From: Flaccisagitta enflata
Lineage: Eukaryota
Direction: 5' to 3'
Length of the DNA: 64,000 nucleotides
NCBI GenBank assembly: GCA_965153355.1
Contig: OZ231126.1
Coordinates: forward strand, 13,268,001-13,332,000
Positions 848 through 56,659 of the stretch are shown here, in pieces (the stretch's first letter is position 1; each line of letters starts with the position of its first letter). A model generated the notes under the pieces. It worked only from the letters and a program-made list of their open reading frames with translations. It made no database searches and had not been told where the DNA came from. The translations under genes and the position numbers were made by a program.

Positions 848-2012
848 GGCAGCGGCCCCAAAGGGTCGATGCCTTGTAAAACACAGGCGGGAATTTCCAG
901 ATGTCAGTCTTTCCGTCTGTTCCCCCCTCTGTTTACTATCAAGGCCTTAAACTAGTCCGCCCAGGTCTCAAATCTGCCCTCCAGGCTTCCTAATTAGCCC
1001 CATGTGCCTCAAATCTGCCCTCCAGACCTTCAATCGGCCCTCCAAGCTTAAAATCAGCCCTCCATATCCATGCCTAAAATTTGCCTTTTGGGCAGCGGCC
1101 CCGAAGGGGGACTTTCGTTCGTCCGTTCGATCGTCCGTTCCTTAGTCCCCCCCCTTCATCAAACCCCTCAGGCCTCAAATCTGGCCTTTCATGCCGCAAA
1201 TCCAGCCTCTCAGGTCTCAAATCCAGCCTCCCGGGCCTCAAATCTGGCCTCTCAGGCCTCAAATCAGGCCTCTCAGGCCACAAATCTGGCCTCTCAGGCC
1301 ACAAATCTGGCCTCTCAGGCCTCAAATCTGGCTTCTCAGGCCTCAAATCCAAATTATCAGGCCTCAAACCTGGCCTCTTATGCCTCAAATTAGGCCTCTC
1401 AGGCCTCAAATCAGCCATCTAAACCTATATTTACTGCTCCCAGGCTTCAAATCAGTCCTTTGGCCTTTCAAGCCTTAATCCAGCTCTCTCAAGCCTTAAG
1501 TTAGCCCTCTCAAGCTTCCCATCGGCATTCTGAGGCCTTATATCAGCCTTCTTAGACCTCAGTTTAGGCTCCTGAATGCCTTCAGTCAGCCCTCTATAGC
1601 ATTCCCAGTTCTTCAGGTAGGACAAATGAAAGTCCCCCTGTGTTCTACAGGATTTCGTCCCCTTCGGGGCCGCTGCCCTGCTTCCCCTCACTCCAATTCA
1701 CAATCACTCAAAGCAGGGCAACGGGTATTGCTGACCACATATTGCCCTTGGGCGACCTTTTAGATTTCAAATCTGCTACTCAAGCCTAAATTCTGCCCTC
1801 CAGCCCTCAAAAATGCCTTCAATGGCCTAAATCACTCATCTAAGGCCTGAAATATGTCCCCCTAGGACGTCTGGAAATTCACCCCTGTGTTCTAAAGGAC
1901 ATTGGTTCTTTGGGGCCACTGCCCTACTCTTACTCAACTTCTTTACTGGATCACTCAAAGTCCAAGCAGGGCATCGGGTACCGCAGACCATATACGATTG
2001 TTGGATGACTAG
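848..2012 (+). mobile_element. Family A non-autonomous element (subterminal IRs plus 21-bp minisatellite core, HINE/Helentron-like), outer copy
   Basis: ggcagcggccccaaaggg...aatttccagatgtc (848-906) is inverted to gacgtctggaaattc...ggggccactgccc (about 1866-1924). An asymmetric tail ending gatgactag follows. Flanks are T-rich. Confidence 0.65.
1090..1757 (+). mobile_element. Family A element nested in the previous copy
   Basis: gggcagcggccccgaagggg at 1090 and its inverse ccccttcggggccgctgccc at 1659-1678. Internal 21-bp repeats (ctctcaggcctcaaatctggc) and the same tail (aagcagggcaacgggta...gacca). Confidence 0.7.
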
Positions 2013-13699: not shown

Positions 13700-14523
13700 T
13701 AAGTCGCTGGTTAAGCTACAATATAAGAGGATCTGTCCGTATCTAGGTTGGCAGGTATGTAGTTAGGTAGGTAGGTCGGTTGAGCGAAATTTTGGATGAT
13801 GCAAAATTGACTAAAATAGTGAATTCTGACCATTGAATATATTTTGTGGTATAATAAATCAGTGCATGAAGACATCAGAATGAGTATTTAACCTGACTAT
13901 TGATTCGGCAGAAAATTTATTTATCTAAGATTCGAAGAATAGTTTCAGACAACTATTTTAGATGGCGGCCATTTAAAGTTTTTAAGGACAATTGTCCTAA
14001 ATTATTTTGAGACAATTGTCCTTAAAAACTTGAAATGGCTATAAAATCTGAAATAATTGTCTGACTGAGCTGTTCTTGTAGTCTAGGACAGGTAAAATTT
14101 TTTGCCGAATCTAATGGTCTGGGTTAGAACACTCAATTCGGATGTCTTCATGCACTTTGATTTCACGAGTTATTTTTTTTGACAGCCAAATATATTCAAG
14201 GAATTAAGTATCTTTTAATTAAGTTAGACACAAAAAATTAAGTTTGGGAAATGAAATTAAAGTAACAAAAATTAATCCTCCAGTTTTAGCCGGGTTTGCT
14301 CGGAAGGTACTGTAGGTTGGCAGGTATGTAGTTAAGTAGGTAGGTCGGTTGAGCGAAATATTGGATGATGAAAATTGACTGAAATAGTGAATTCTGACCA
14401 CTACTGCTCCTGCCCAGCCACATTACCACCCCCGCCCTCGCCCGCCTCCTAACTGCCCGAGTCCACCAGCGTTAGTGCCCACCCGCCAGTGACTACTTAT
14501 TGGTCGTATATCCGGCATTGTTT
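13700..14523 (+). mobile_element. HINE-like element with an internal ~88-bp duplication and a truncated pogo-like insertion
   Basis: subTIR agtcgctgg (about 13702) / ccagtgact (about 14487). 3' end cgtatatccggcattgttt. Direct repeats at 13744-13832 and 14313-14400. Confidence 0.55.
13833..14312. mobile_element. Family C long-IR Tc1/pogo-like element, truncated on the left
   Basis: The right end gccgggtttgctcggaaggtactg|TA is the inverse of the left end at 22196. It shares the central palindrome tttaaggacaattgtc...gacaattgtccttaaa with 23720-23770. Confidence 0.75.
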
Positions 14524-15477
14524 TCTTTATTCACTGGTCGAAAAATATAAGAAAAACGAAAGTTTCAGCATTTGAATCAGCAACAAAATTTACTGAAAGT
14601 TTTTTTTTTCTGGCCAAGTTAAAGAAAGAACGCGATTGAAGAACGCGTTTTAACGCGTTTTAACAACAGATTTAAATCGATGTAAGCGTAACCGTTACGT
14701 GGTCGTATATCCGGCATTGTTTTCTTTATTCACTGGTCGAAAAATACAAAAAAAACAAAAGCTTCAACATTCGAATCAGCAACAAAATTTACTGAAAGTT
14801 TTTTTTCTGGCCAACTTCCTCCCAGCCACATTAACGAACGCCTTTTAACGCGTTTAACACCACGTTAGCATATCGTGTAAGCCAGTACTAAGGTGTATAT
14901 CCGGCATTGTTTTCTTTATTCACTGGTCGAAAAATACAATAAAAACAAAAGCTTCAGCATTCGAATCAGCAACAAAATTTACTGAAAGTTTTTTTTTCTG
15001 GCCAAGTTAAAGAAAGAACGCGATTGAGGAACGCGTTTTAACGCGTTTTAACAACACGTTTAAATCGATGTAAGCGTAACCGTTACGTGGTCGTATATCC
15101 TGCATTGTTTTCTTTATTCACTGGTCGAAAAATACAAGAAAAACGAAAGCTTCAACATTTGAATCAGCAACAAAATTTACTGAAAGTTTTTTTTCTGGCC
15201 AAGTTAATCAAAGAACGCGATTGAAAAACGCGTTTTAACGCGTTTTAACAACACATTTAAATCGATGTAAGCGTAACCGTTACGTGGTCGTATATCCGGC
15301 ATTGTTTTCTTTATTCACTGGTCGAAAAATACAAGAAAAACGAAAGCTTCAACATTTGAATCAGCAACAAAATTTACTGAAAGTTTTTTTTCTGGCCAAG
15401 TTAATCAAAGAACGCGATTGAAGAACGCGTTTTAACGCGTTTTAACAACACGTTTAAATCGATGTAAGCGTAATCGT
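14501..15477. repeat. ~197-bp tandem satellite, 5 copies
   Basis: Units start near 14501, 14700, 14891, 15088 and 15285 (tggtcgtatatccggcattgttttctttattcactggtcgaaaaata...). Confidence 0.95.
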
Positions 15478-22404: not shown

Positions 22405-23636
22405 CAGACTATGACAGTCAGCCGTCCAAAGGCCCTATTCCTGCCCCAGACCCTGCCCAAGAGCGATCCCTCTATTGCCGCTCCTCCCTCTTCTCCCCTC
22501 CTTCTTCCATCCTCCTTTAACTCCTCTGCCTCCACCTCTTGTTCTGCTACCTCTCACCCTCCATACTCATACACATCTTCCGCCGTCGCCTCTGCTGCCG
22601 CTACCTAGCTCCTTTCATCCACCTACCTCTTCCGCCGTCGCCGCTATTGCCGCTACCTGCTGCATATCATGCCTCTAGACCTCTTTTGCCGCTGCCGCTA
22701 CTGCCGCTACTGCCGCTACTTTCAGTAGCGGCAATAGAGGCGGCGGCGGAAGAGGTGTAGGAAGATGTTAATGGGGGTAGAGGCAGCAGAGGTAGAGATC
22801 TAAACCCCCTAAACCTCTTCCGCCGCTGCCGCTATTGCCGCTACCTTGGGTAGCGGCACTAGCGGCAGCGGCAGAGGAGGTGTAGGGGCAAAAAATTTGC
22901 GTAAGTAGCGGCACTAGCGGCACTAGGGGAGGAGGTGTAGGGGCAAAAAATTAGCCTTAGTAGCGGCATTAGCGGCACTAGCGGCACTAGCGGCAGCGGC
23001 GGAGGAGGTGTAGGGGTAAAAAATTTGTGCAAGTAGCGGCACTAGTGGAGGAAGTGTAGGGGCAAAAAATTAGCGTCAGTAGCGGCACTAGGGGCACTAG
23101 CGGCACTAGCGGCAGCGGCGGAAGAGGTGGGTAGCGGCACTAGCGGCAGCGGCAGAGGAGTTGTAGGGGCATGGTATGGGGTAGGTAGCGGCACTAGCGG
23201 CGGCAGTGGAAGAGGTGTAGGGGCATGATATGTGATAGGTAGCGGCACTAGCGGCAGCGGCGGAAGAGTAGTAGGGGCATAAGTTGGGTTAGGTAGCGGC
23301 AGTAGCGGCGGCGGTGGCGGAAGAGGTATACAGGCATGATTTGGGGTAGGTAGAGGCAGTAGCGGCGGCGGCAGAGGAGGTTTGAGGACATGGTATAAGG
23401 TAGGTAGCGGCACTAGCGGCGGCAACGGAAGAGGTATGGGGGCATGATTTGGGGTAGGTAGCGGCACTAGCAGCAGCGGCGGAAGAGGTGTAAGGGGTAG
23501 AAAGGATAAATGAGGATAGGTAGAGGCAGTATAGTCGTCGACAGAAGAGGTTTAGGGGATGGAAAGGATGCTGGGAGGTAGGAAGAGACAGAAAAGGGAA
23601 GTAAAAGAAACCAGGGTGGACCGCTGGTTGTCACTG
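22405..23636. mobile_element. Insertion with a GC-rich inverted minisatellite core (~57-bp units, gtagcggcactagcggc)
   Basis: It interrupts family C, with (g)attcagc duplicated on both sides. Imperfect TIR tgacagtcagccgtcca / tggaccgctggttgtca. Confidence 0.6.
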
Positions 23637-32526: not shown

Positions 32527-33180
32527 GGGCAGCTGCCCCGAAGCGGCCGATGACCTATGCTTTCACATAGGGAAAATTTTTCCTCCTTCTTCTCCTCCTT
32601 CTATGTCCTTCCCCCCCCCCCCCGCCATAAGACTCAAATCCCATTCTCAACGTTTAAATCTCAGTCTTGAGGCTCAAATCCCGGTCTTGAGGCTCAAATC
32701 CCAGTCTTGAGGCTCAAATCTCAGTCTTGATGCTTAAATCCCAGTCTTGAGGCTGAAATCCTAGTCTTGAGGCTGAAATCCCAGCCCCAAGGTCCTTACC
32801 CGAGCTGCAAGACTCAAATCCCAGTCTTGAGGCTCAAATCCCGGCCATGAGACTCTAACCCCAGTCTCAAATTCTTAAATCCCAGTCTTGATGCTCAAAT
32901 CCCAGTCTTGAGGCTCAAATCCCAGTCTCGAGGCTCAAATCCCAGTCATGAGGCTGAAATCCCAGCCCCAAGGACCTTATCCCAGCCACAAGGCTCAAAT
33001 CCCAGTCTTGAGACTCAAATCCTAGTCTTGATCCATTATTGCAATTTTGTTTGTTAGCCAGTCATATGTAGTCATTCAGTAAATCTTACTTTCATCATTT
33101 CAAAACAGCATAGGTCACCTCTCACCATCACACATCCACATACATTCAAATAAGGGCAACGGGTACCGCTGACCATCTAA
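32527..33180 (+). mobile_element. Family A element with a 21-bp (gaggctcaaatcccagtctt) array
   Basis: gggcagctgccccgaagcggccgatgacctatgctttcaca head and agggcaacgggtaccgctgacca tail. Confidence 0.7.
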
Positions 33181-39089: not shown

Positions 39090-39465
39090 CTGACCCTAAA
39101 TCAGGCCCTCCAGACTTGAAATCAGGCCTCTCAGACCTCAAATTATGTCTCTCAGTTCCAAAATCAGGCCTCAGACCCTAAATTAGATATCTCTGACCTC
39201 AAATCACGCCTTCCAGACCCTAAATTAGGCCTCTCAGATTTTTCTCAAGCTTTTCAGACTCCAAATCAGGCCTCTCAAATCTTAGATAATACGTTTCAGA
39301 CTCCAAATCAATTTAGACTCCTGAACAGGCCTCCCCAGTCTAAAATCAGGAATCTAAGACTTCCAATCAAGCCTATCAGTCTCTACATTAGATTTTTACT
39401 TCCCTTCATTTTCCCAATTTTGTTCCTTTTTGGGCAGCGGCCTCAAAGGGCCGATGTCCTGTAGC
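39090..39465. mobile_element. Degenerate family A minisatellite and head
   Basis: aaatcaggcctctcagac-type 21-bp units, then gggcagcggcctcaaagggccgatgtcc at about 39432. Confidence 0.55.
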
Positions 39466-40888: not shown

Positions 40889-43082
40889 ATGAAAAACGAT
40901 AACAATAAAAAACAACGACAACAACATCAAAAGATGGAGTCTTCTTCTTCGCGTTCAACATCAACGGCAAATTCCGGCGCCATTTCGGGCGTCACTTCCG
41001 GCCCCACTTCCGGTTCCGGTCTCCGGCGTCCGGCGCCTTCGCCGCTGCCGACTTTCGCCGCTCAAAAATCAGCCAAAATCGCCGCCGGAAATACATCAAC
41101 GTCAACATCAACGTCAACATCAACGTCGACGTCAAAATCGACGTCGTCAATTCGGAACAACAAATCAGCGTCGACATCCCCCGAGTCGAAATCGCGAAGG
41201 ACTCCGCCGCCGACGAAAATGATGCCGACGCAGATGCCGACGCCGACGACGCCGCCGACGCCGACACAAGTCGACGCCGTTTCGCCTCCGATGCCAGAGT
41301 CGCCGAGATCATCTCCTTCTCCTCCTCCTCTTCCGCCTTCATCCTCGTCTGGAAATTACTCGTCCAAGCCGACAACGACTGTTTCCTCTCTTTCTTCTTC
41401 TTCTTCTTCTTCATCGATGACAAGTTCCACTCTTTCCTCGGCATCATCCTCATCTTCCACGACTCCCCTCGCCGCCAAATCCTCACCTCTTTCCTCCACT
41501 TCCTTCGGCATTTCCGGTCACCCTAAAAGGCGTCTTTCACACGCCACTGTCATGTCGGCGCCGATCGCGTCCCGACCGAGAACAATCTCGCCAACTAACT
41601 TTGGCGGCGCCACCCCTGGCGCCAACGGAGCCGGCTATCCCATCAACAAACAAACCAACAGATACAATAATAATCACAACAATGTTCACGATAGTAAAAA
41701 CAGTAACGACGTTGTGGGAAATAACGCGGTGAATCATAACAACAATAACAACGCCGCTGATATTGACAGTGAGAATTATCATTCTCCATCGACGTCACCG
41801 AGAAACTCTGCCGCCTCCTCTCCTCTTCCCTCTCCTCATCCTCCGCCTCGTCCTTATCTTCCACGCGCCCCAAACGCTTCGTCAACTGCATCTTTGCAAT
41901 CGGCGCCTTTGATTTTGTCACCGGGATCGCCTCCCGCTCCATCTTCGCTTCCTCCACCTCCTCCTCTTTCCACAACGCCTCCCACCTTCAACAACGCCGT
42001 CGACAACGACGATGATGACGACGACGACGCTGATGTGGATCCTTGTTCATCTCCCGTGTCGTCTTCAGCGGGCCTTTCTCCCGGAGGCAACTCTGCTTCT
42101 TCTTCTTCCGCACATCTTCTTCCACCTCCCCCTCCTCCTCCTTCCGCCTCTTCCTCCTCTATGCACGCTCCACATCCGATTCATCCACTCCACGTTCCAC
42201 ATCCTCTTCAACATCATCTTTCCCAACATCCTCATAGGACCGCATCTCAACATCCTCTTCATCCACTACCGACACATCCGCATCACCACCATCATCCACA
42301 TCACTCGGCGGCCGCTGCGGCCGCAGCCGCCGCGATGCTCATGAACGGCGGGGCGTTGCATTCGAAGCATCCCTTGACGACCTCCGCCGCATCTCTGTCT
42401 GTATCTGCCTCCAGCGCCTCGTCGACTTTGAGTCTAAAGGCGTCGGCGTTTTCCATCGATTCTCTCATCGCCTCCAAGTCATCTGCGGTTGCCGCAGCCG
42501 CAGCTGCCGCGGCGGCGCTACGTGATCCTCCGCCGGCGCATTCGTCGCCGCAGCCGCCTCATCCCGGCGCCATTTCCGGTGCCTCGGCCCTGCCAGGCGC
42601 TCATTACTCTCTTCACCATCCTGCTCCTCCTCCTCCTCATCATCCTCATTCTCATCATTCTCTCTCCTCGTCTTCATCCTCCTCCACTGGTATGAGATCC
42701 CCGCCTTTGCCTCATCAGCCTTCGTCTCACGGACTTCCACCGTCTACGTCCGCCTCCTCCTCCTCATCTTCCTCTTCCTCCTCTTCCTCTTCTCCACGTG
42801 GGCGATCACCACTCCCCCCTCCATCGTTGACGCACGTTTTGTCTTCCTCCGCTTCTACTTCTTCGACGTCTCCTAGATCGCGCTCGCCGCTTCGGCCGCT
42901 CGCACATCCGCTCGCAATCCCGCCGCACGCGCAACATCAGCATCAACAACAACTACAACATCATCATCAACAACAACAACAACAACAACATCACTTTGCG
43001 GCGACGGCGGCGGGAAAAAGCGGACGTCGTGGCGTCGGAAGTTTGGACGATGTTGACGACGATCACGCCATGGGGCCGCTGG
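40889..43082 (+). CDS. Tbx20: Tbx20/H15/midline-like T-box transcription factor, predicted coding exon 1 (Ser/Pro/His/Ala/Gln-rich N-terminus with eh1 motif)
   Basis: 2.2-kb open frame. It contains LSLKASAFSIDSLIA (eh1 FSIxxLI at 42449-42469), resembling the eh1 context of Tbx15/18/20. It ends at donor G|GTAAGG (GT 43083-43084, phase 1), which joins in frame to exon 2. The start codon is uncertain (40889, 40934 or a later Met). Confidence 0.8.
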
Positions 43083-47049: not shown

Positions 47050-47590
47050 GACTCTGTTTCTTAGGTATATTTAAAAACAATGATCGAACAAAGTCCAGGA
47101 CATCGTCCTGCGCACTGTGGTCTGTTGTTGTTAAAACAGGAGGCATAGTACTGTTCTGACTTTATTGATTTCGCAATAAGATAATGTCCATAAAAGATAA
47201 TGATAATGAAATATCTTATTGCTTTATATATTGAAACAAAGATAACTTGGACAATAAATGTTTTAAACAAAACTAAGCAAACGAAACAATAGTGATAATG
47301 ATGTTTATTAGATTACATTTATGAATTTTTGATGGGAATTATTGCAAACTAGGAGTGATGAATGTAGAACCTGGTCCATAACTATTTGTAAGCCCTCTCC
47401 CTTATACTTTATTTTGTATGTGGTGATAGGTATCAATATACACATGTTAAAGGATAAAAGTTGAATGAAAGTAGTCCGGAATTAAATTTGCGAAGATTTC
47501 CTAATCCAACCCAGAGTGCCAACTCTTGATCTCGTTTGTCACGGTTGTCATTAAGGATCATGCATCAATTTAAATCAGTTTACTTAAAAA

Positions 47591-47674
<84 letters not shown>

Positions 47675-48393
47675 CAGAGACAGGAACAGAGAGAGACAGA
47701 CAGACATATAGAGACAGAGACAGAGACAGTGAGAGACAGTGCCAGAGAGACAGAGAGAGACAGAAAGAGACGGACAGTCAGACAGCAAGATAGAGAGACA
47801 GATGGAAACTTTAAATCAGTCACAAAGCAAGTCATTGTTACATTAGTCAACAATCGATCAATCAATGAGTGCATGTATTATTATGTATATTTCCTGAAAC
47901 ATTGACCTTCGATCTGTTATTTCCTGAATATGAAATGGTGAGAAAGTGGGAACTTCCGAAGTTGGTTGGTTATTTTTGTTTTCACAACCAACGGCATTGA
48001 TCTTTAAGATTTCAATGATTTGTCAAATTTATATGTGTCAGTTTTTTTTATGTCGTAACGACTTGTCAAGTCAATTTTTAAAGTAACAACATCAAATTTA
48101 CTTTCTGCCAATTCATGAGTAACAAAGATGTTCGTTATCTTTACAAGCGTACATGAATCTCCTTTGTAGTCCATTCTGACGTAGTTGTTCCAACGAAGCA
48201 TGACTTTTAAATCATAAAGGTTTGAATTATTCATTTCAGGCTAGTTTGGATTGTCGTGCATGGAATGACTAGTTATGCTTTGTCTCTTTGACCCAATCAC
48301 ATGTTTATGTGTATAAAACCAGTTGTGAAAGTATAAAACCTTGTCCCACACCCATTCAACACAACTTAACATAGCATAACGTTTCCCATGCAG

Positions 48394-48663
48394 AAAAATT
48401 CGTGGAGACGACGACGAAAACTTACCACCAAGAGTCCTCCTCTTCCTCCTCCTCCTCCGCCTCCGGCCACCATCACATCTCCCCTTCTCACGCCTCTCCC
48501 TCCTCCGCCTCCTCCTCCTCCAAATCGGCCGCATCTCTCAGACCGAATTTGAGTCCCAATGCTAACCAAATCTCATCCGGGTCTTCCTTCGTTTCTCCGC
48601 CGACTTCCGGGGGAAATCCCGGCATTTCACCGGGAGGATCCTCAGGAGCCGGAAGCGTGACCA
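48394..48663 (+). CDS. Tbx20: Tbx20-like predicted coding exon 2 (Ser/Gly-rich linker, 270 nt, phase 1-1)
   Basis: Acceptor gtttcccatgCAG (48391-48393) and donor A|GTAAGT (48664). The frame continues exon 1 (G+AA=E, KFVETTTKTYHQESSSS...GAGSVT) with the same low-complexity composition. Confidence 0.7.
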
Positions 48664-48721
48664 GTAAGTTGCTCGTTATTGACGGTGGATGTGTAAGTTG
48701 TTCGTTATTGACAGTTGATGA
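48664..48721 (+). repeat. 29-bp tandem duplication of the intron 2 donor
   Basis: GTAAGTTGCTCGTTATTGACGGTGGATGT followed by GTAAGTTGTTCGTTATTGACAGTTGATGA. Confidence 0.85.
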
Positions 48722-48839
48722 GTTAATGTCCGCCACTGACGAGTGATGACAAAGTGTTGACTACCGATGGGTGATGGTTGAGTGTTCGCTTCTGCCGGGT
48801 ATTTCATAAGCGTGCATTGTATGCATTGTATCTCCTTAT

Positions 48840-49291
48840 ATACTTATTCCAGATGATGGTGGTGATCATGCTTCCATGTGTTATAACTCCTGTCTTGTTT
48901 CTTCTCAATGTTGGTGGCGGATGCTTTCATGTGTTCCAACTCCTGTCTCATTTCGTCCAGATGGTGGTGGCGGATGTTTTCATGTGTTACAATCCCTGTC
49001 TTGTTCCTTCCAGATGGTGGTGGCGGATGTTTTCATGTGTTACAATCCCTGTCTTTTTTCTTCCAGATGGTGGTGGCGGATGATTTCATGTGTTACAATC
49101 CCTGTCTTTTTTATTCCAGATGGTGGTGGCGGATGATTTCATGTGTTCCAACTCCTGTCTTATTTCGTCCAGATGGTGGTGGCGGATGATTTCATGTGTT
49201 ACAATCCCTGTCTTGTTTCTTCCAGATGGTGGTGGCGGATGTTTTCATGCGTTACAATCCCTATCTTGTTTCTTCCAGATGGTGGTGGCGG
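48840..49291 (+). repeat. 53-bp tandem array spanning the intron 2/exon 3 junction
   Basis: Unit is about ATGGTGGTGGCGGATG(A/T)TTTCATGTGTTACAATCCCTGTCTTGTTTCTTCCAG. Post-AG starts are at 48961, 49014, 49067, 49120, 49173, 49226 and 49279, with diverged copies near 48853 and 48908. Confidence 0.95.
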
Positions 49292-49426
49292 TGGAAACAC
49301 AGGAGTCGTTGTTCAACAACAAGGTTCCGAAGATCTGTCTTCCATTCAATGTCATTTAGAGACCAAAGAATTGTGGGATAAATTCAACGAACTCGGCACA
49401 GAGATGATAATCACAAAGTCAGGGAG
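49279..49426 (+). CDS. Tbx20: Tbx20-like predicted coding exon 3: start of the T-box DNA-binding domain
   Basis: Encodes GGGGGNTGVVVQQQGSEDLSSIQCHLETKELWDKFNELGTEMIITKSGR. LETKELWDKF.ELGTEMIITKSGR matches the Tbx20/H15/midline T-box start as I recall it. Acceptor ttgtttcttcCAG; donor AG|GTAAGT at 49427 (phase 2), at the GR/R position where T-box genes commonly have an intron. Confidence 0.93.
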
Positions 49427-50089
49427 GTAAGTCATTTTTAAAACTCATTTTGAAACCAGCTGTCGTAAGCCACGCCACGCATTGGCATTACTCTTGGGTA
49501 GAGAAAGTGGAAAATCTGGACTTTGGATGATTGCTACTTCCCACGGGCACCACTTTTTTCATGGCCTGGCAAACTTAAGTTTCATTAACAGTGTGTGGTC
49601 CTTGTGGTCCTTACTTTCTACCCATTTCTTTAATTTCTTAAATCTCACCTAATGTCTGTCTTATGGTCAGTATGGTCACCCCTGTCCTCTACCCATATGG
49701 CCCCACTTTATCCTCTTATCATGATCATGGGATATATTTCTCAGTTTTGACCAGATTCTGTCCCAAAGAGCCTAATTCCATCACGCAAAAAGACGGTCTT
49801 GTGTAGACGTGGTATTTCGCTGCCGTCTTTACTTTATAAAAACATGAATGAGCTTCATTGATAAGTTTCGTCGTGAAAGCATGATTAGTTATATGACGAG
49901 CGGTTGTTAAAATTCCTTCGGGCATTAAATCTATGTCGACGTCTTCGTTAATTTATGACATTCAACATTTAAAGGGCAATACATGAGCCTCCATTACAAA
50001 ACGTTGTTGATTGAAATCGCAACTCAGATTTATGTTTCATGCCTTATTAATCAATTAACTATGGTTGTAGGAAAACAAGTACTTTTAAG

Positions 50090-50235
50090 TCTTCTTCTTC
50101 TTCTTCTTCTTCTTCTTCTTCTTCTTCTTTTTCTTTTTCTTTTTCTTTTTCTTTTTCTTTTTCTTTTTCTTCTTCTTCTTCTTCTTCTTCTTCTTCTTCT
50201 TCTTCTTCTTCTTCTTCTTCTTCTTCTTCTTCTTC

Positions 50236-50266
<31 letters not shown>

Positions 50267-50425
50267 TTTCTTTTTCTTTTTCTTTTTCTTTTCTTTTTCT
50301 TTTTCTTTTTCTTTTTCTTTTTCTTTTCCTTTTCTTCTTTTTCTTTTCTTTTTCTTTTTCTTTCTTTCTTTTTCTTTCTTCTTCTTCTTCTTCTTCTTCT
50401 TCTTCTTCTTCTTCTTCTTCTTCGT
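50090..50425. repeat. (CTT)n/(CTTTTT)n tract
   Basis: Directly visible. Confidence 0.95.
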
Positions 50426-51744
50426 TATTTCTCTAATCTCCGAATGATTTACACTTTCATGAAATACACAAATCTGAACAAAGCATGTAATTACATGCAA
50501 TTTGTCGAAGACGTTAAGTGCTGCTTCATGCTTCAATGTCCTCTGACTGAGTTCGTTTCATAGATTAAATCTCTGCGTAATGAAAATCGGCAGTGTTAAA
50601 GATTTCAGCAAAGGAGGAGCGAAAGAGTGTGCAATGGTTGACAAAGCAGCCGTCATGTATCATAACATTAACAGTAAAATGGCATAACCAATCAATAAGA
50701 ATAGGAAAATATATCTAGGATAAAATAAGCAAGGAATCCAAAGACTAGAAAAAAAAGAACAGAAAAAGGATCTCAAAAGGGGAAGAAATAATTACAAGAA
50801 GAAAAAAATTCAAAGAAAAAATAGAAAATGACCGGTAACAAAAAAAAAAAAAAAAAAAAAAGAAAACACATATTTCCTCCACGCTTGTCAAATTACATTC
50901 CTTTTGCCCCCCGCCGCTTTTACAACCTCTGAAGGCATTGTTGAAAATTGATATTTGGTATTCCTGTTTTGAAATTGGCAAACTATATCTACGGCTCGAA
51001 TGCGCAAAAGAAAAAAAAACAAAACAAACAAAAAAAAAAAAAAAAAAAAGAACGAGGGAAACAATATTTTGTTAAGTTTTGTGATTGTGGGAGAAATAAA
51101 AAGAACGATGTTGTCAAAAAGAAACTATATTTTACGCGGTATATCATTTGCGTTTTCTACTGGAGATTTGTTCTTGAACGTGTTTATTTTGTATTGAAGA
51201 AACTCCGTTGTTGTCGATGTTGTCATAGTCGTTGCTTGCGTATTCGTCCTTCCGTTGGTTGTTGTCGATGTTGTCATCGTCGTTGCTCACGTAGTCGTCG
51301 TTGCTATTGGTTTTGTTGTTTTTGTCGATGCCTTTGGTCTCAATTCTCAAACAGGTGTTGTCGCACTTTTATACTTTCCTACATTTTTTTAGCAATTGTG
51401 CTCGTTAGACGTAACTCACGTTTGCTTGTGATAAAACACTGTCTCGGTGTTTAACTGTAACACAACTGTCAAATGGCAAATACAAAGCCAAGAAGTCCCT
51501 TAAAAGTTGAAAGGCAGAATAGTTGATAATTGATGTTTGATAGATGATACATGATTCACCCACGTAACTTTTGTCAACAACAAAATCTGGAAAGTCAGCT
51601 TCGAACTTTAAATCGAATAGTATTGACATATTTTATGCACAGTTAGCTTCTCAAGTCCATGGCCTACACTCTCTTAGATGCCTCACCTGTGGCCCTCCCT
51701 ATTCCATCTGTCTCTTGCCCTCCTTTTCTTTTACTCTCCTCCAT

Positions 51745-56084: not shown

Positions 56085-56659
56085 GTTAGATGGTCAGCGG
56101 TACCCGTGCCCTGCCTAAGTTGGTTGTGGTTGAAGTTGAGGGGGGAGCAGGGCAGCGGCCCCGAAGGGGTCGATGACCTATGCTTTCACACATATGGGGG
56201 ATTTTCTCCTCCTCCTCCTTCTTCTTCTCCTCCTCCTCCTCCTCCTCCTCCGTCCCTCCCCCTCAAATCCCAGTCCCGAGGCCCAAATCCCAGCCTCAAG
56301 GCCCAAATCCTAGCCTCAAGCCCTAAATCCTAGCCTGGAGGCTGAGATTTGGGCCTCAAGGTTGGGATCTGGGCCTCCTGGCTGAGATTTTGACCTTGAG
56401 GCTGAGATTTGGGCGTCACGGCTGAAATCTGGGCCTCCAGGCTAGGATTTAGGCCTTGAGGCTAGGATTTGGGCCTTGAGGCTGGGATTTGGGCCTCAAG
56501 ACTGGGATTTGGGCCTCGAGACTGGAATTTGGGCCTCGGGACTGGGATTTGAGGGGGGTGGACGGAGAAGAAGGAGGAGAAGAAGAAGAAGGAGGAGGAG
56601 GAGAAAATCCCCCATATGTGTGAAAGCATAGGTCATCGACCCCTTCGGGGCCGCTGCCC
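56085..56659 (-). mobile_element. Family A element in foldback configuration
   Basis: About 75-bp perfect IR gggcagcggccccgaaggggtcgatgacctatgctttcacacatatgggggattttctcctcc at 56150, inverse ending 56659, continued by oppositely oriented 21-bp arrays. The tail lies at 56085-56149. Confidence 0.85.

What the first reader, a model, noticed from the sequence alone, without database searches (positions are those of the whole stretch)
48840..49291. The 3' splice site in front of the T-box is amplified into an array of decoy acceptors
Seen: each 53-bp unit is the last ~40 nt of intron 2 (pyrimidine tract plus CAG) and the first 13 nt of exon 3 (ATGGTGGTGGCGG). This gives candidate acceptors at 48853, 48961, 49014, 49067, 49120, 49173, 49226 and 49279. 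Manual translation from the phase-1 donor at 48663 shows that every upstream acceptor hits a stop before the T-box (TGA at 49081, 49134 or 49187; TAG at 49357). Only the last acceptor is productive. Inference: the spliceosome must skip about 7 near-identical sites, or the array diverts part of the transcripts into NMD or into truncated proteins that keep eh1 but lack the T-box. Repeat copy number could then tune the dosage of a developmental transcription factor.
Basis: partly seen in the sequence, partly recalled or inferred. Interest (0 to 1): 0.85.

Follow-up and report, generated by a model that had tools for sequence, protein, structure and literature searches.

The report
Repeated splice acceptor before T-box exon
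A 53-base minisatellite has copied the end of an intron and the first bases of the next exon eight times in front of the T-box exon of a TBX20-like gene, giving seven look-alike splice acceptors that would all wreck the reading frame, but whether the cell ever uses them could not be tested.

Summary
TRF finds a 53-bp x 8.4 array at 48847-49291. Each unit has one AG, a pyrimidine tract and a branch-like motif. The gene is a TBX20/H15-type T-box gene, and the exon model is supported by conserved motifs, synonymous variation and a relative's mRNA-like protein. The array is not purely an assembly artefact: unitigs of three samples and four independent ENA contig proteins contain it. Their unit make-up differs, and two read as four units shorter. 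A 98%-identical gene copy has no array. Tandem repeats cover 27% of the window.

Decoy use, NMD and dosage tuning remain untested: no RNA holder was listed and the one RNA run gave no usable reads. Best reading: a young, lineage-specific, probably length-variable minisatellite spanning the boundary. It mirrors the donor-side arrays of human F7, 6-16 and CBS (PMC1557585). Interest is moderate.

The parts
40889..43082 (+). Exon 1 (coding part): 731-aa low-complexity N-terminus with an eh1-like motif (FSIDSLI); phase-1 donor G|GTAAGG
   Evidence: Open frame; donor read. Named TBX20 proteins carry FSIAAIM at the matching N-terminal place. No Pfam family and no database relative.
48394..48663 (+). 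Exon 2, 270 nt, phase 1 in and out
   Evidence: Acceptor CAG|AA read. The P-L-E-K-F-V motif of insect TBX20 (P0043, P0108) is reconstituted across the exon 1/2 junction. 4 of 5 variants seen in other samples are synonymous third positions.
48664..48720 (+). 29-bp x 2 duplication that repeats the donor GTAAGT (48664 and 48693)
   Evidence: TRF; donor-like sites.
48664..49278 (+). Intron 2 (615 nt if the last acceptor is used)
48847..49291 (+). 53-bp minisatellite, 8.4 units. Each unit has a branch-like TTCAT 31 nt upstream, a pyrimidine tract, a single AG and 13 nt of exon 3. Identity at lag 212 (94.3%) exceeds lag 53 (91.3%).
48851..49225 (+). Seven upstream pseudo-acceptor AGs (first exon base 48853, 48961, 49014, 49067, 49120, 49173, 49226); all give premature stops with donor 48663
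49279..49426 (+). Exon 3, 148 nt, start of the T-box; donor AG|GTAAGT. The rest of the T-box lies outside the window.
   Evidence: Pfam PF00907 positions 1-26, E 4.9e-8. tblastn of P0002 finds only this exon in the window. 0 variants in 148 nt in the other samples.

Best explanation
This is a young, lineage-specific minisatellite, probably variable in length. It arose by tandem duplication (slippage or unequal exchange) of a 53-bp segment spanning the intron 2 / exon 3 boundary of a functional TBX20/H15-type gene, in a genome very prone to tandem repeats. Each copy kept a complete acceptor module: branch-like motif, pyrimidine tract and a single AG. The authentic acceptor (49277-78) is therefore preceded by six near-identical pseudo-acceptors and one diverged one. 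Productive mRNA joins 48663 to 49279 (shown by frame and conservation; inferred for this animal's RNA). I infer that the last copy is preferred because it alone is followed by the real exon body and lies closest to the downstream donor at 49427 (exon definition). I also infer that any use of upstream copies is unproductive leakage removed by surveillance, not a dosage-setting device. The array is most likely neutral or slightly deleterious.
For: Structure. Frame: 7 of 7 upstream acceptors give stops and only 49279 is open with donor 48663. The gene is real and constrained. T-box Pfam match; best named relatives are TBX20/H15. The PLEKFV motif is restored across the exon 1/2 junction and S-E-D-L...C-H-L-E-T-K is conserved in exon 3. 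Exon 3 has 0 variants in 148 nt. Exon 2 has 5, of which 4 are synonymous. The introns laid (1, 2 and 3) have 19 variant positions. A relative's mRNA-like protein, P0002 (660 aa on a 2903-nt contig, complete T-box at E 4.8e-76), begins MTNGSG and runs straight into exon 3. That fits the T-N codon made by 48663+49279. The array is young and variable. Units are 89% alike. ENA proteins P0121, P0171, P0172 and P0173 carry array units before exon 3 with different unit variants. P0121 and P0173 read as window units 4-5 joined directly to exon 3. P0001 and P0174 are 98% identical in exon 3 and show no array in the 150 nt upstream. Repeat-prone background: 26.9% of the window is tandem repeat, with 29 loci of period 15 or more. 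Precedent: donor-side boundary minisatellites in which only the authentic site, or it plus one or two more, is used (PMC1557585, introduction and discussion read).
Against: There is no RNA from this animal, so preference for the last AG is inferred, not seen. The upstream copies are not intrinsically weaker: pyrimidine fraction is 0.76-0.94 against 0.88 for the real site, with the same branch-like motif. They are also transcribed first. With short introns (189-562 nt), intron-definition pairing could favour them. The globin duplication experiments cited in PMC1557585 gave conflicting results. The shorter alleles may be collapsed short-read assemblies, since only 23 nt are shared at the relevant joint. 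P0001/P0174 could be a paralogue and not a sister lineage. It is not known whether P0002's species has an array.
Confidence: 0.6

Rival explanations
1. One reading: the upstream copies are real decoys used at an appreciable rate. They divert TBX20 pre-mRNA into PTC-containing, NMD-targeted or eh1-only products, so array length sets the dose of the transcription factor.
For: Six upstream copies match the real site in pyrimidine tract, branch-like motif and the 13 nt after the AG. All seven upstream copies, counting the diverged 48853, give stops at least 70 nt before the exon 3 donor. The array seems to differ in length and make-up between contigs. The human ABCA7 intronic VNTR shows length-dependent mis-splicing, with one retained unit giving a PTC (PMC5954066, passages read). 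In the human 6-16 and CBS genes two pseudo-sites are used (PMC1557585).
Against: No RNA evidence exists at all. The array is absent from a 98%-identical copy, so it is not a conserved regulatory feature. The repeat-rich background makes a chance origin likely. In F7, LMNB2 and PDGF the reiterated sites stay silent. Adaptive tuning is an extra assumption.
Confidence: 0.2
2. Assembly artefact: the array, or its length of 8 units, is produced or inflated by mis-assembly.
For: Copy number could not be confirmed. No contig piece spans the whole array. X2 and X3 have empty bins inside it, and some bins are thin (for example 9.3 at 49143-49189 in X1). ENA contigs suggest shorter versions.
Against: X1 unitigs cover 30 of 30 bins, and all 8 listed X1 pieces have at most 2 differing letters. 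An 83-nt piece longer than one unit (48992-49074 / 48997-49079) is present in X2 and in a marine metagenome, X3. Four independent ENA proteins contain two to four units. Unit variants are distinct, not identical copies.
Confidence: 0.05
3. Part of the array is coding in an alternative isoform: the duplicated donor at 48692/3 joined to acceptor 49173 adds 45 residues to the non-conserved linker before the T-box.
For: This is the only other open combination among the 16 tested. The second donor is a perfect GTAAGT. The linker is not conserved among TBX20 proteins.
Against: No protein with such an insert was found among hits to exon 3 (87-2000 aa). In the F7 array the most upstream of the identical donors is the one used. 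The inserted peptide is repeat-derived and hydrophobic.
Confidence: 0.05
4. The gene copy is decaying or redundant (a paralogue does the work), so the array is tolerated because splicing no longer matters.
For: P0001/P0174 could be an array-free paralogue. The 731-aa low-complexity exon 1 has no relatives.
Against: Exon 3 is invariant in all laid samples and in 4 of 4 ENA array-bearing proteins. Exon 2 variants are 4 of 5 synonymous. Frames and splice sites are intact.
Confidence: 0.05

Closest known systems
Human F7 intron 7 37-bp VNTR, and the similar arrays in the interferon-inducible 6-16 gene, CBS intron 13, LMNB2 and PDGF (Borensztajn et al. 2006, PMC1557585; abstract, introduction and discussion read)
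   Same: A minisatellite whose monomer spans an exon-intron boundary. The authentic splice site is reiterated several times in the intron as identical, potentially functional pseudo-sites. F7 is polymorphic in copy number (5-9), and use of a pseudo-site changes the frame.
   Different: All those cases reiterate the 5' splice site, and the first (exon-proximal) copy is the real one. Here the 3' splice site with its branch region is reiterated and the last copy is the real one. Selection must therefore rest on 3'-site rules (branch-point choice, exon definition), not on 5'-to-3' donor scanning. The organism is a non-model marine invertebrate and no transcript data exist.
Human ABCA7 intron 18 25-bp VNTR (De Roeck et al. 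2018, PMC5954066; passages read)
   Same: An intronic VNTR starting at a splice site. Retention of one unit gives a frameshift and PTC.
   Different: It is donor-side. It is far longer (0.8-10 kb), and its effect includes skipping of the next exon via bound splicing factors. It was shown by experiment, whereas nothing is shown here.
Expanded CAG repeats acting as arrays of splice acceptors (bioRxiv 10.1101/2023.10.16.562581; search listing and abstract start only)
   Same: A tandem repeat that offers many AG acceptors to an upstream donor and yields aberrant mRNAs.
   Different: It is a trinucleotide repeat without its own branch or pyrimidine modules, and it is pathological. Here each 53-bp unit is a copy of a complete natural acceptor.
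TBX20 / H15 / midline T-box genes
   Same: T-box start, eh1-like N-terminal motif, PLEKFV motif, and best named hits.
   Different: Very long low-complexity exon 1 (731 aa), and the acceptor array.

Membership tests
Boundary-spanning minisatellite that reiterates a splice site (F7 IVS7 type) | Tandem array of several similar monomers in an intron | tested here: met
   53 bp x 8.4, 89% matches; 6 pattern hits against 0 expected.
Boundary-spanning minisatellite that reiterates a splice site (F7 IVS7 type) | One monomer spans the exon-intron boundary, so the authentic splice site is repeated in the intron | tested here: met
   The last unit ends 13 nt into exon 3. Seven upstream CAG|ATG[G/A]TGGTG copies. 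This is on the acceptor side, unlike the described cases.
Boundary-spanning minisatellite that reiterates a splice site (F7 IVS7 type) | Copy number polymorphic among individuals | tested here: inconclusive
   P0121 and P0173 read as four units shorter, and unit variants differ among 4 ENA proteins. Short-read collapse is not excluded, and no spanning read was available.
Boundary-spanning minisatellite that reiterates a splice site (F7 IVS7 type) | Pseudo-sites silent or nearly so in normal mRNA | not testable with these tools
   No RNA holder was listed, and the one RNA run gave 3 reads on a low-complexity stretch only. Only indirect evidence: a relative's protein P0002 shows the productive junction.
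TBX20/H15/midline subfamily of T-box factors | T-box DNA-binding domain | tested here: met
   PF00907 positions 1-26 in exon 3, E 4.9e-8, 33.5 bits against a cutoff of 26. The rest is outside the window. Relative P0002 has the full domain.
TBX20/H15/midline subfamily of T-box factors | N-terminal eh1 motif and closest similarity to TBX20/H15 rather than other T-box classes | tested here: met
   FSIDSLI in exon 1 against FSIAAIM in P0043, P0108, P0111 and P0031. PLEKFV motif shared. Every subfamily name given among the listed hits is TBX20, H15 or T-box protein 20. No tree was built, so orthology is inferred.
Regulated unproductive splicing coupled to NMD (AS-NMD) | PTC-containing isoform observed in RNA and stabilised when NMD is blocked | not testable with these tools
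   No usable RNA data.
Regulated unproductive splicing coupled to NMD (AS-NMD) | Alternative site conserved among related lineages | tested here: not met
   P0001/P0174 (98% identical in exon 3) have no array in the 150 nt upstream. The array units are young (89-96% alike).

The most novel reading that the evidence does not exclude
This would be a natural acceptor-side counterpart of the F7 donor array. The copies are functional 3' splice sites used at a rate that depends on their number. Wild individuals carrying about 4 versus about 8 units would then make different amounts of productive TBX20 mRNA. Upstream-acceptor transcripts also carry an ATG (49173) in frame with the T-box, which could give an eh1-less form.
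Probability: 0.1. Interest if true: 0.7.

Novelty: new variant of a known kind. Interest (0 to 1): 0.35.

Why it matters
Arrays of identical splice sites are natural experiments on how the spliceosome chooses among equals. The donor-side cases (F7 and others) led to the oriented-scanning model. An acceptor-side array could test branch-point and first-AG scanning against exon definition and first-come-first-served co-transcriptional choice. Each unit here carries its own branch region, pyrimidine tract and single AG. If the copies leak, array length would be a heritable, fast-mutating modifier of a key heart and neural patterning factor. As things stand it is a well-documented structural oddity in a very repeat-rich genome, with no functional evidence.

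Tried and rejected
RNA test: the look-up of sequencing runs listed no RNA holder. The one RNA run of the same study (X9, about 6 in 100 of it read) gave 3 reads, all partial and all on the TCC low-complexity stretch 48485-48531. This says nothing on expression or splicing.

Exon 2 peptide against 1.84 billion representatives: 0 hits. Exon 1 residues 470-731 against the 5.8-billion set (402-1280 aa): none of 8000 candidates scored. No transcript-derived protein carrying exon 1 or 2 could therefore be examined for a decoy-type end.

JGI metagenome contigs: 0 matches to an exon 3 35-mer and 0 to a unit pattern.

Whole genome: none held, so I could not test whether the 53-bp unit is a dispersed family. 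Within the window it occurs only in the array.

Masking by RNA structure: MFE -139.9 kcal/mol against a shuffle mean of -144.3, z +0.69, so rejected. Rfam: 0 families in 47500-50500.

Recursive splicing: rejected, because no GT follows any AG of the array.

Homology of the P0001 upstream part to the window intron: only non-significant matches (E 17).

Literature on an acceptor-side boundary minisatellite: 8 searches found none. The library lacks most subscription journals, so this is weak evidence of absence.

Full report
**Observation.** Tandem Repeats Finder reports an array at 48847-49291 with period 53, 8.4 copies, 89% matches and score 646. A unit pattern allowing 3 mismatches matches 6 times, all within the array, against 0 expected in 100 shuffles. 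AG followed by ATG[G/A]TGGTG occurs with the first exon base at 48853, 48961, 49014, 49067, 49120, 49173, 49226 and 49279. The copy near 48906 has lost its AG. Each unit is about 40 nt of intron end plus ATGGTGGTGGCGG, the first 13 nt of exon 3.

Each unit contains exactly one AG, 53 nt from the previous one. It also has a TTCAT branch-like motif 31 nt upstream and a pyrimidine fraction of 0.82-0.94 at -20..-4. The authentic site scores 0.88, and the diverged first copy at 48853 scores 0.76. By these simple measures the six near-identical upstream copies are complete acceptor modules, no weaker than the real one. Identity at lag 212 (94.3%) exceeds that at lag 53 (91.3%) or at lags 106 and 159 (89%). 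This suggests the present array arose partly by duplication of a four-unit block.

**Gene model.** Exon 3 (49279-49426) matches the first 26 positions of the Pfam T-box model (E 4.9e-8, 33.5 bits, cutoff 26) and ends at AG|GTAAGT. No further T-box exon lies in the window.

- Every subfamily name given among the hits listed for exon 3 is TBX20, H15 or T-box protein 20. The named ones are mostly insects, plus an ostracod.
- Exon 1 is a long open frame (40889-43082) with an eh1-like FSIDSLI. It corresponds to FSIAAIM in the named TBX20 proteins P0043, P0108, P0111 and P0031.
- Exon 1 ends G-P-L plus one base at G|GTAAGG. Exon 2 begins after CAG at 48394 with the rest of a Glu codon and K-F-V-E. 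This restores the P-L-E-K-F-V motif present in P0043 and P0108.
- Exon 2 is 270 nt and ends at 48663 in phase 1 before GTAAGT.
- Variation seen in other samples supports coding constraint. Exon 3 has 0 differing positions in 148 nt. Exon 2 has 5, of which 4 are synonymous third positions. Intron 2 upstream of the array has 11, and intron 3 has 6 plus one indel.

**Consequences of each acceptor.** Splicing from 48663 to the seven upstream acceptors gives stops at 49134, 49134, 49187, 49081, 49134, 49187 and 49357. Only 49279 is open. A 29-bp x 2 duplication also repeats the donor, with GTAAGT at 48664 and 48693. Of the 16 donor-acceptor combinations tested, the only other open one is 48692 with 49173 (+135 nt).

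**Is the array real, and how old is it?** The DNA run X1 may be the source sample. Its unitigs cover 30 of 30 bins, and all 8 listed pieces have at most 2 differing letters. A second sample (X2) and a marine metagenome (X3) hold an 83-nt piece longer than one unit (48997-49079 and 48992-49074). They also hold pieces running from the last unit into exon 3. X3 holds a 455-nt piece from exon 2 into the first, diverged units. No piece spans the whole array, so the count of eight is not independently confirmed.

In the protein collection, four ENA proteins read from genomic contigs contain array units directly before exon 3: P0121, P0171, P0172 and P0173.

- The first 40 residues of P0121 are identical to the window's units 4-5 but are followed by exon 3.
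- P0173 reads as units 2-3-4-5 then exon 3, four units fewer than the window.

This fits the four-unit block and suggests length polymorphism. Collapse in short-read assembly is not excluded, because only 23 nt are shared at the joint.

Two other ENA proteins (P0001, P0174) are 98% identical over exon 3. They have an unrelated, non-repetitive 50 residues upstream. A very close gene copy, either a sister lineage or a paralogue, therefore lacks the array.

P0002 is 660 aa on a 2903-nt Logan contig and has a complete T-box (E 4.8e-76), so it is mRNA-like. It begins MTNGSG and continues into exon 3. The T-N matches the codon created by joining 48663 to 49279.

**Context.** Tandem repeats cover 26.9% of the window (120 loci, 29 with a smallest period of 15 or more, covering 6% of the window). 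A splice junction inside a minisatellite is therefore not improbable in this genome. The array has no unusual RNA structure (z +0.69) and no Rfam match.

**RNA evidence.** None could be obtained. No RNA holder was listed. The one RNA run laid gave three partial reads on a low-complexity stretch. Searches with exon 1 and exon 2 peptides found no transcript-derived proteins.

**Mechanism.** Shown so far:

- the array and its complete acceptor modules;
- the frame outcome of each acceptor;
- the constraint on the gene;
- the presence of array units in independent samples;
- the absence of the array in a close copy.

Inferred: the array arose by slippage or unequal exchange across the boundary. 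The last copy is chosen because it alone is followed by the exon body and is nearest the donor at 49427. Upstream use, if any, is unproductive leakage.

Against this inference, the copies are equally strong and are transcribed first, and with short introns they could be favoured. The donor-side precedents differ among themselves. Pseudo-sites are silent in F7, LMNB2 and PDGF, while two are used in 6-16 and CBS (PMC1557585, introduction). Early duplicated-site experiments gave conflicting answers (same paper, discussion). I put about 0.6 on the neutral by-product reading. I put 0.2 on appreciable decoy use with dosage consequences, and within that much less on adaptive tuning.

**Comparison and novelty.** The closest known kind is the boundary-spanning minisatellite that reiterates a splice site: F7 IVS7 and the cases listed with it. 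The ABCA7 VNTR is also close. There one retained unit gives a PTC, and length correlates with splicing and dosage. All of these are donor-side. Eight literature searches found no acceptor-side equivalent. The library omits most subscription journals, and supplements were not consulted. I therefore call this a new variant of a known kind.

**Limits.**
- The organism is coded. That it is a marine planktonic arthropod is my inference from arthropod best hits and marine metagenome holders.
- Copy number, polymorphism and all splicing outcomes need long reads and RNA.

Noticed in passing
window 48664-48720: The donor end of the same intron is also duplicated. A 29-bp x 2 direct repeat gives two perfect GTAAGT donors (48664, 48693). 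The second donor with acceptor 49173 is the only other open-frame combination.
   Followed up: partly
window 1-64000: The window is extremely rich in tandem repeats: 26.9% of bases, 120 TRF loci, 29 with period 15 or more, and many long (AG)n, (TCT)n and (GTT)n tracts.
   Followed up: partly
window 1167-1412, 32633-33031, 39092-39277, 56264-56551: A 20/21-bp minisatellite with related units (CTCAAATCCCAGTCTTGAGG-like) recurs at four places and in both orientations. It may be a dispersed, element-borne array family.
   Followed up: no
window 40889-43082: Exon 1 encodes a 731-aa low-complexity N-terminus rich in Ser, Pro, His, Ala and Gln runs. It is far longer than the roughly 60-200 residues before the T-box in named insect TBX20 proteins, and it has no database relatives.
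   Followed up: partly
window 48546: The window has A (Asn codon), but all three DNA runs laid, including the likely source sample, read G (Asp). This is a rare allele or a consensus error in the assembly.
   Followed up: partly
window 49173-49427: The ATG at the start of array unit 8 opens a frame that runs through two units into the T-box. Prokaryote-style gene callers have deposited this as an 85-aa 'protein' (P0121 cluster) in public collections.
   Followed up: partly
window 14501-15477 and 23126-23497: There are other sizeable minisatellites: 197 bp x 5.0, and 54 bp x 6.8 with a 108/165-bp higher order. Their nature is unknown.
   Followed up: no
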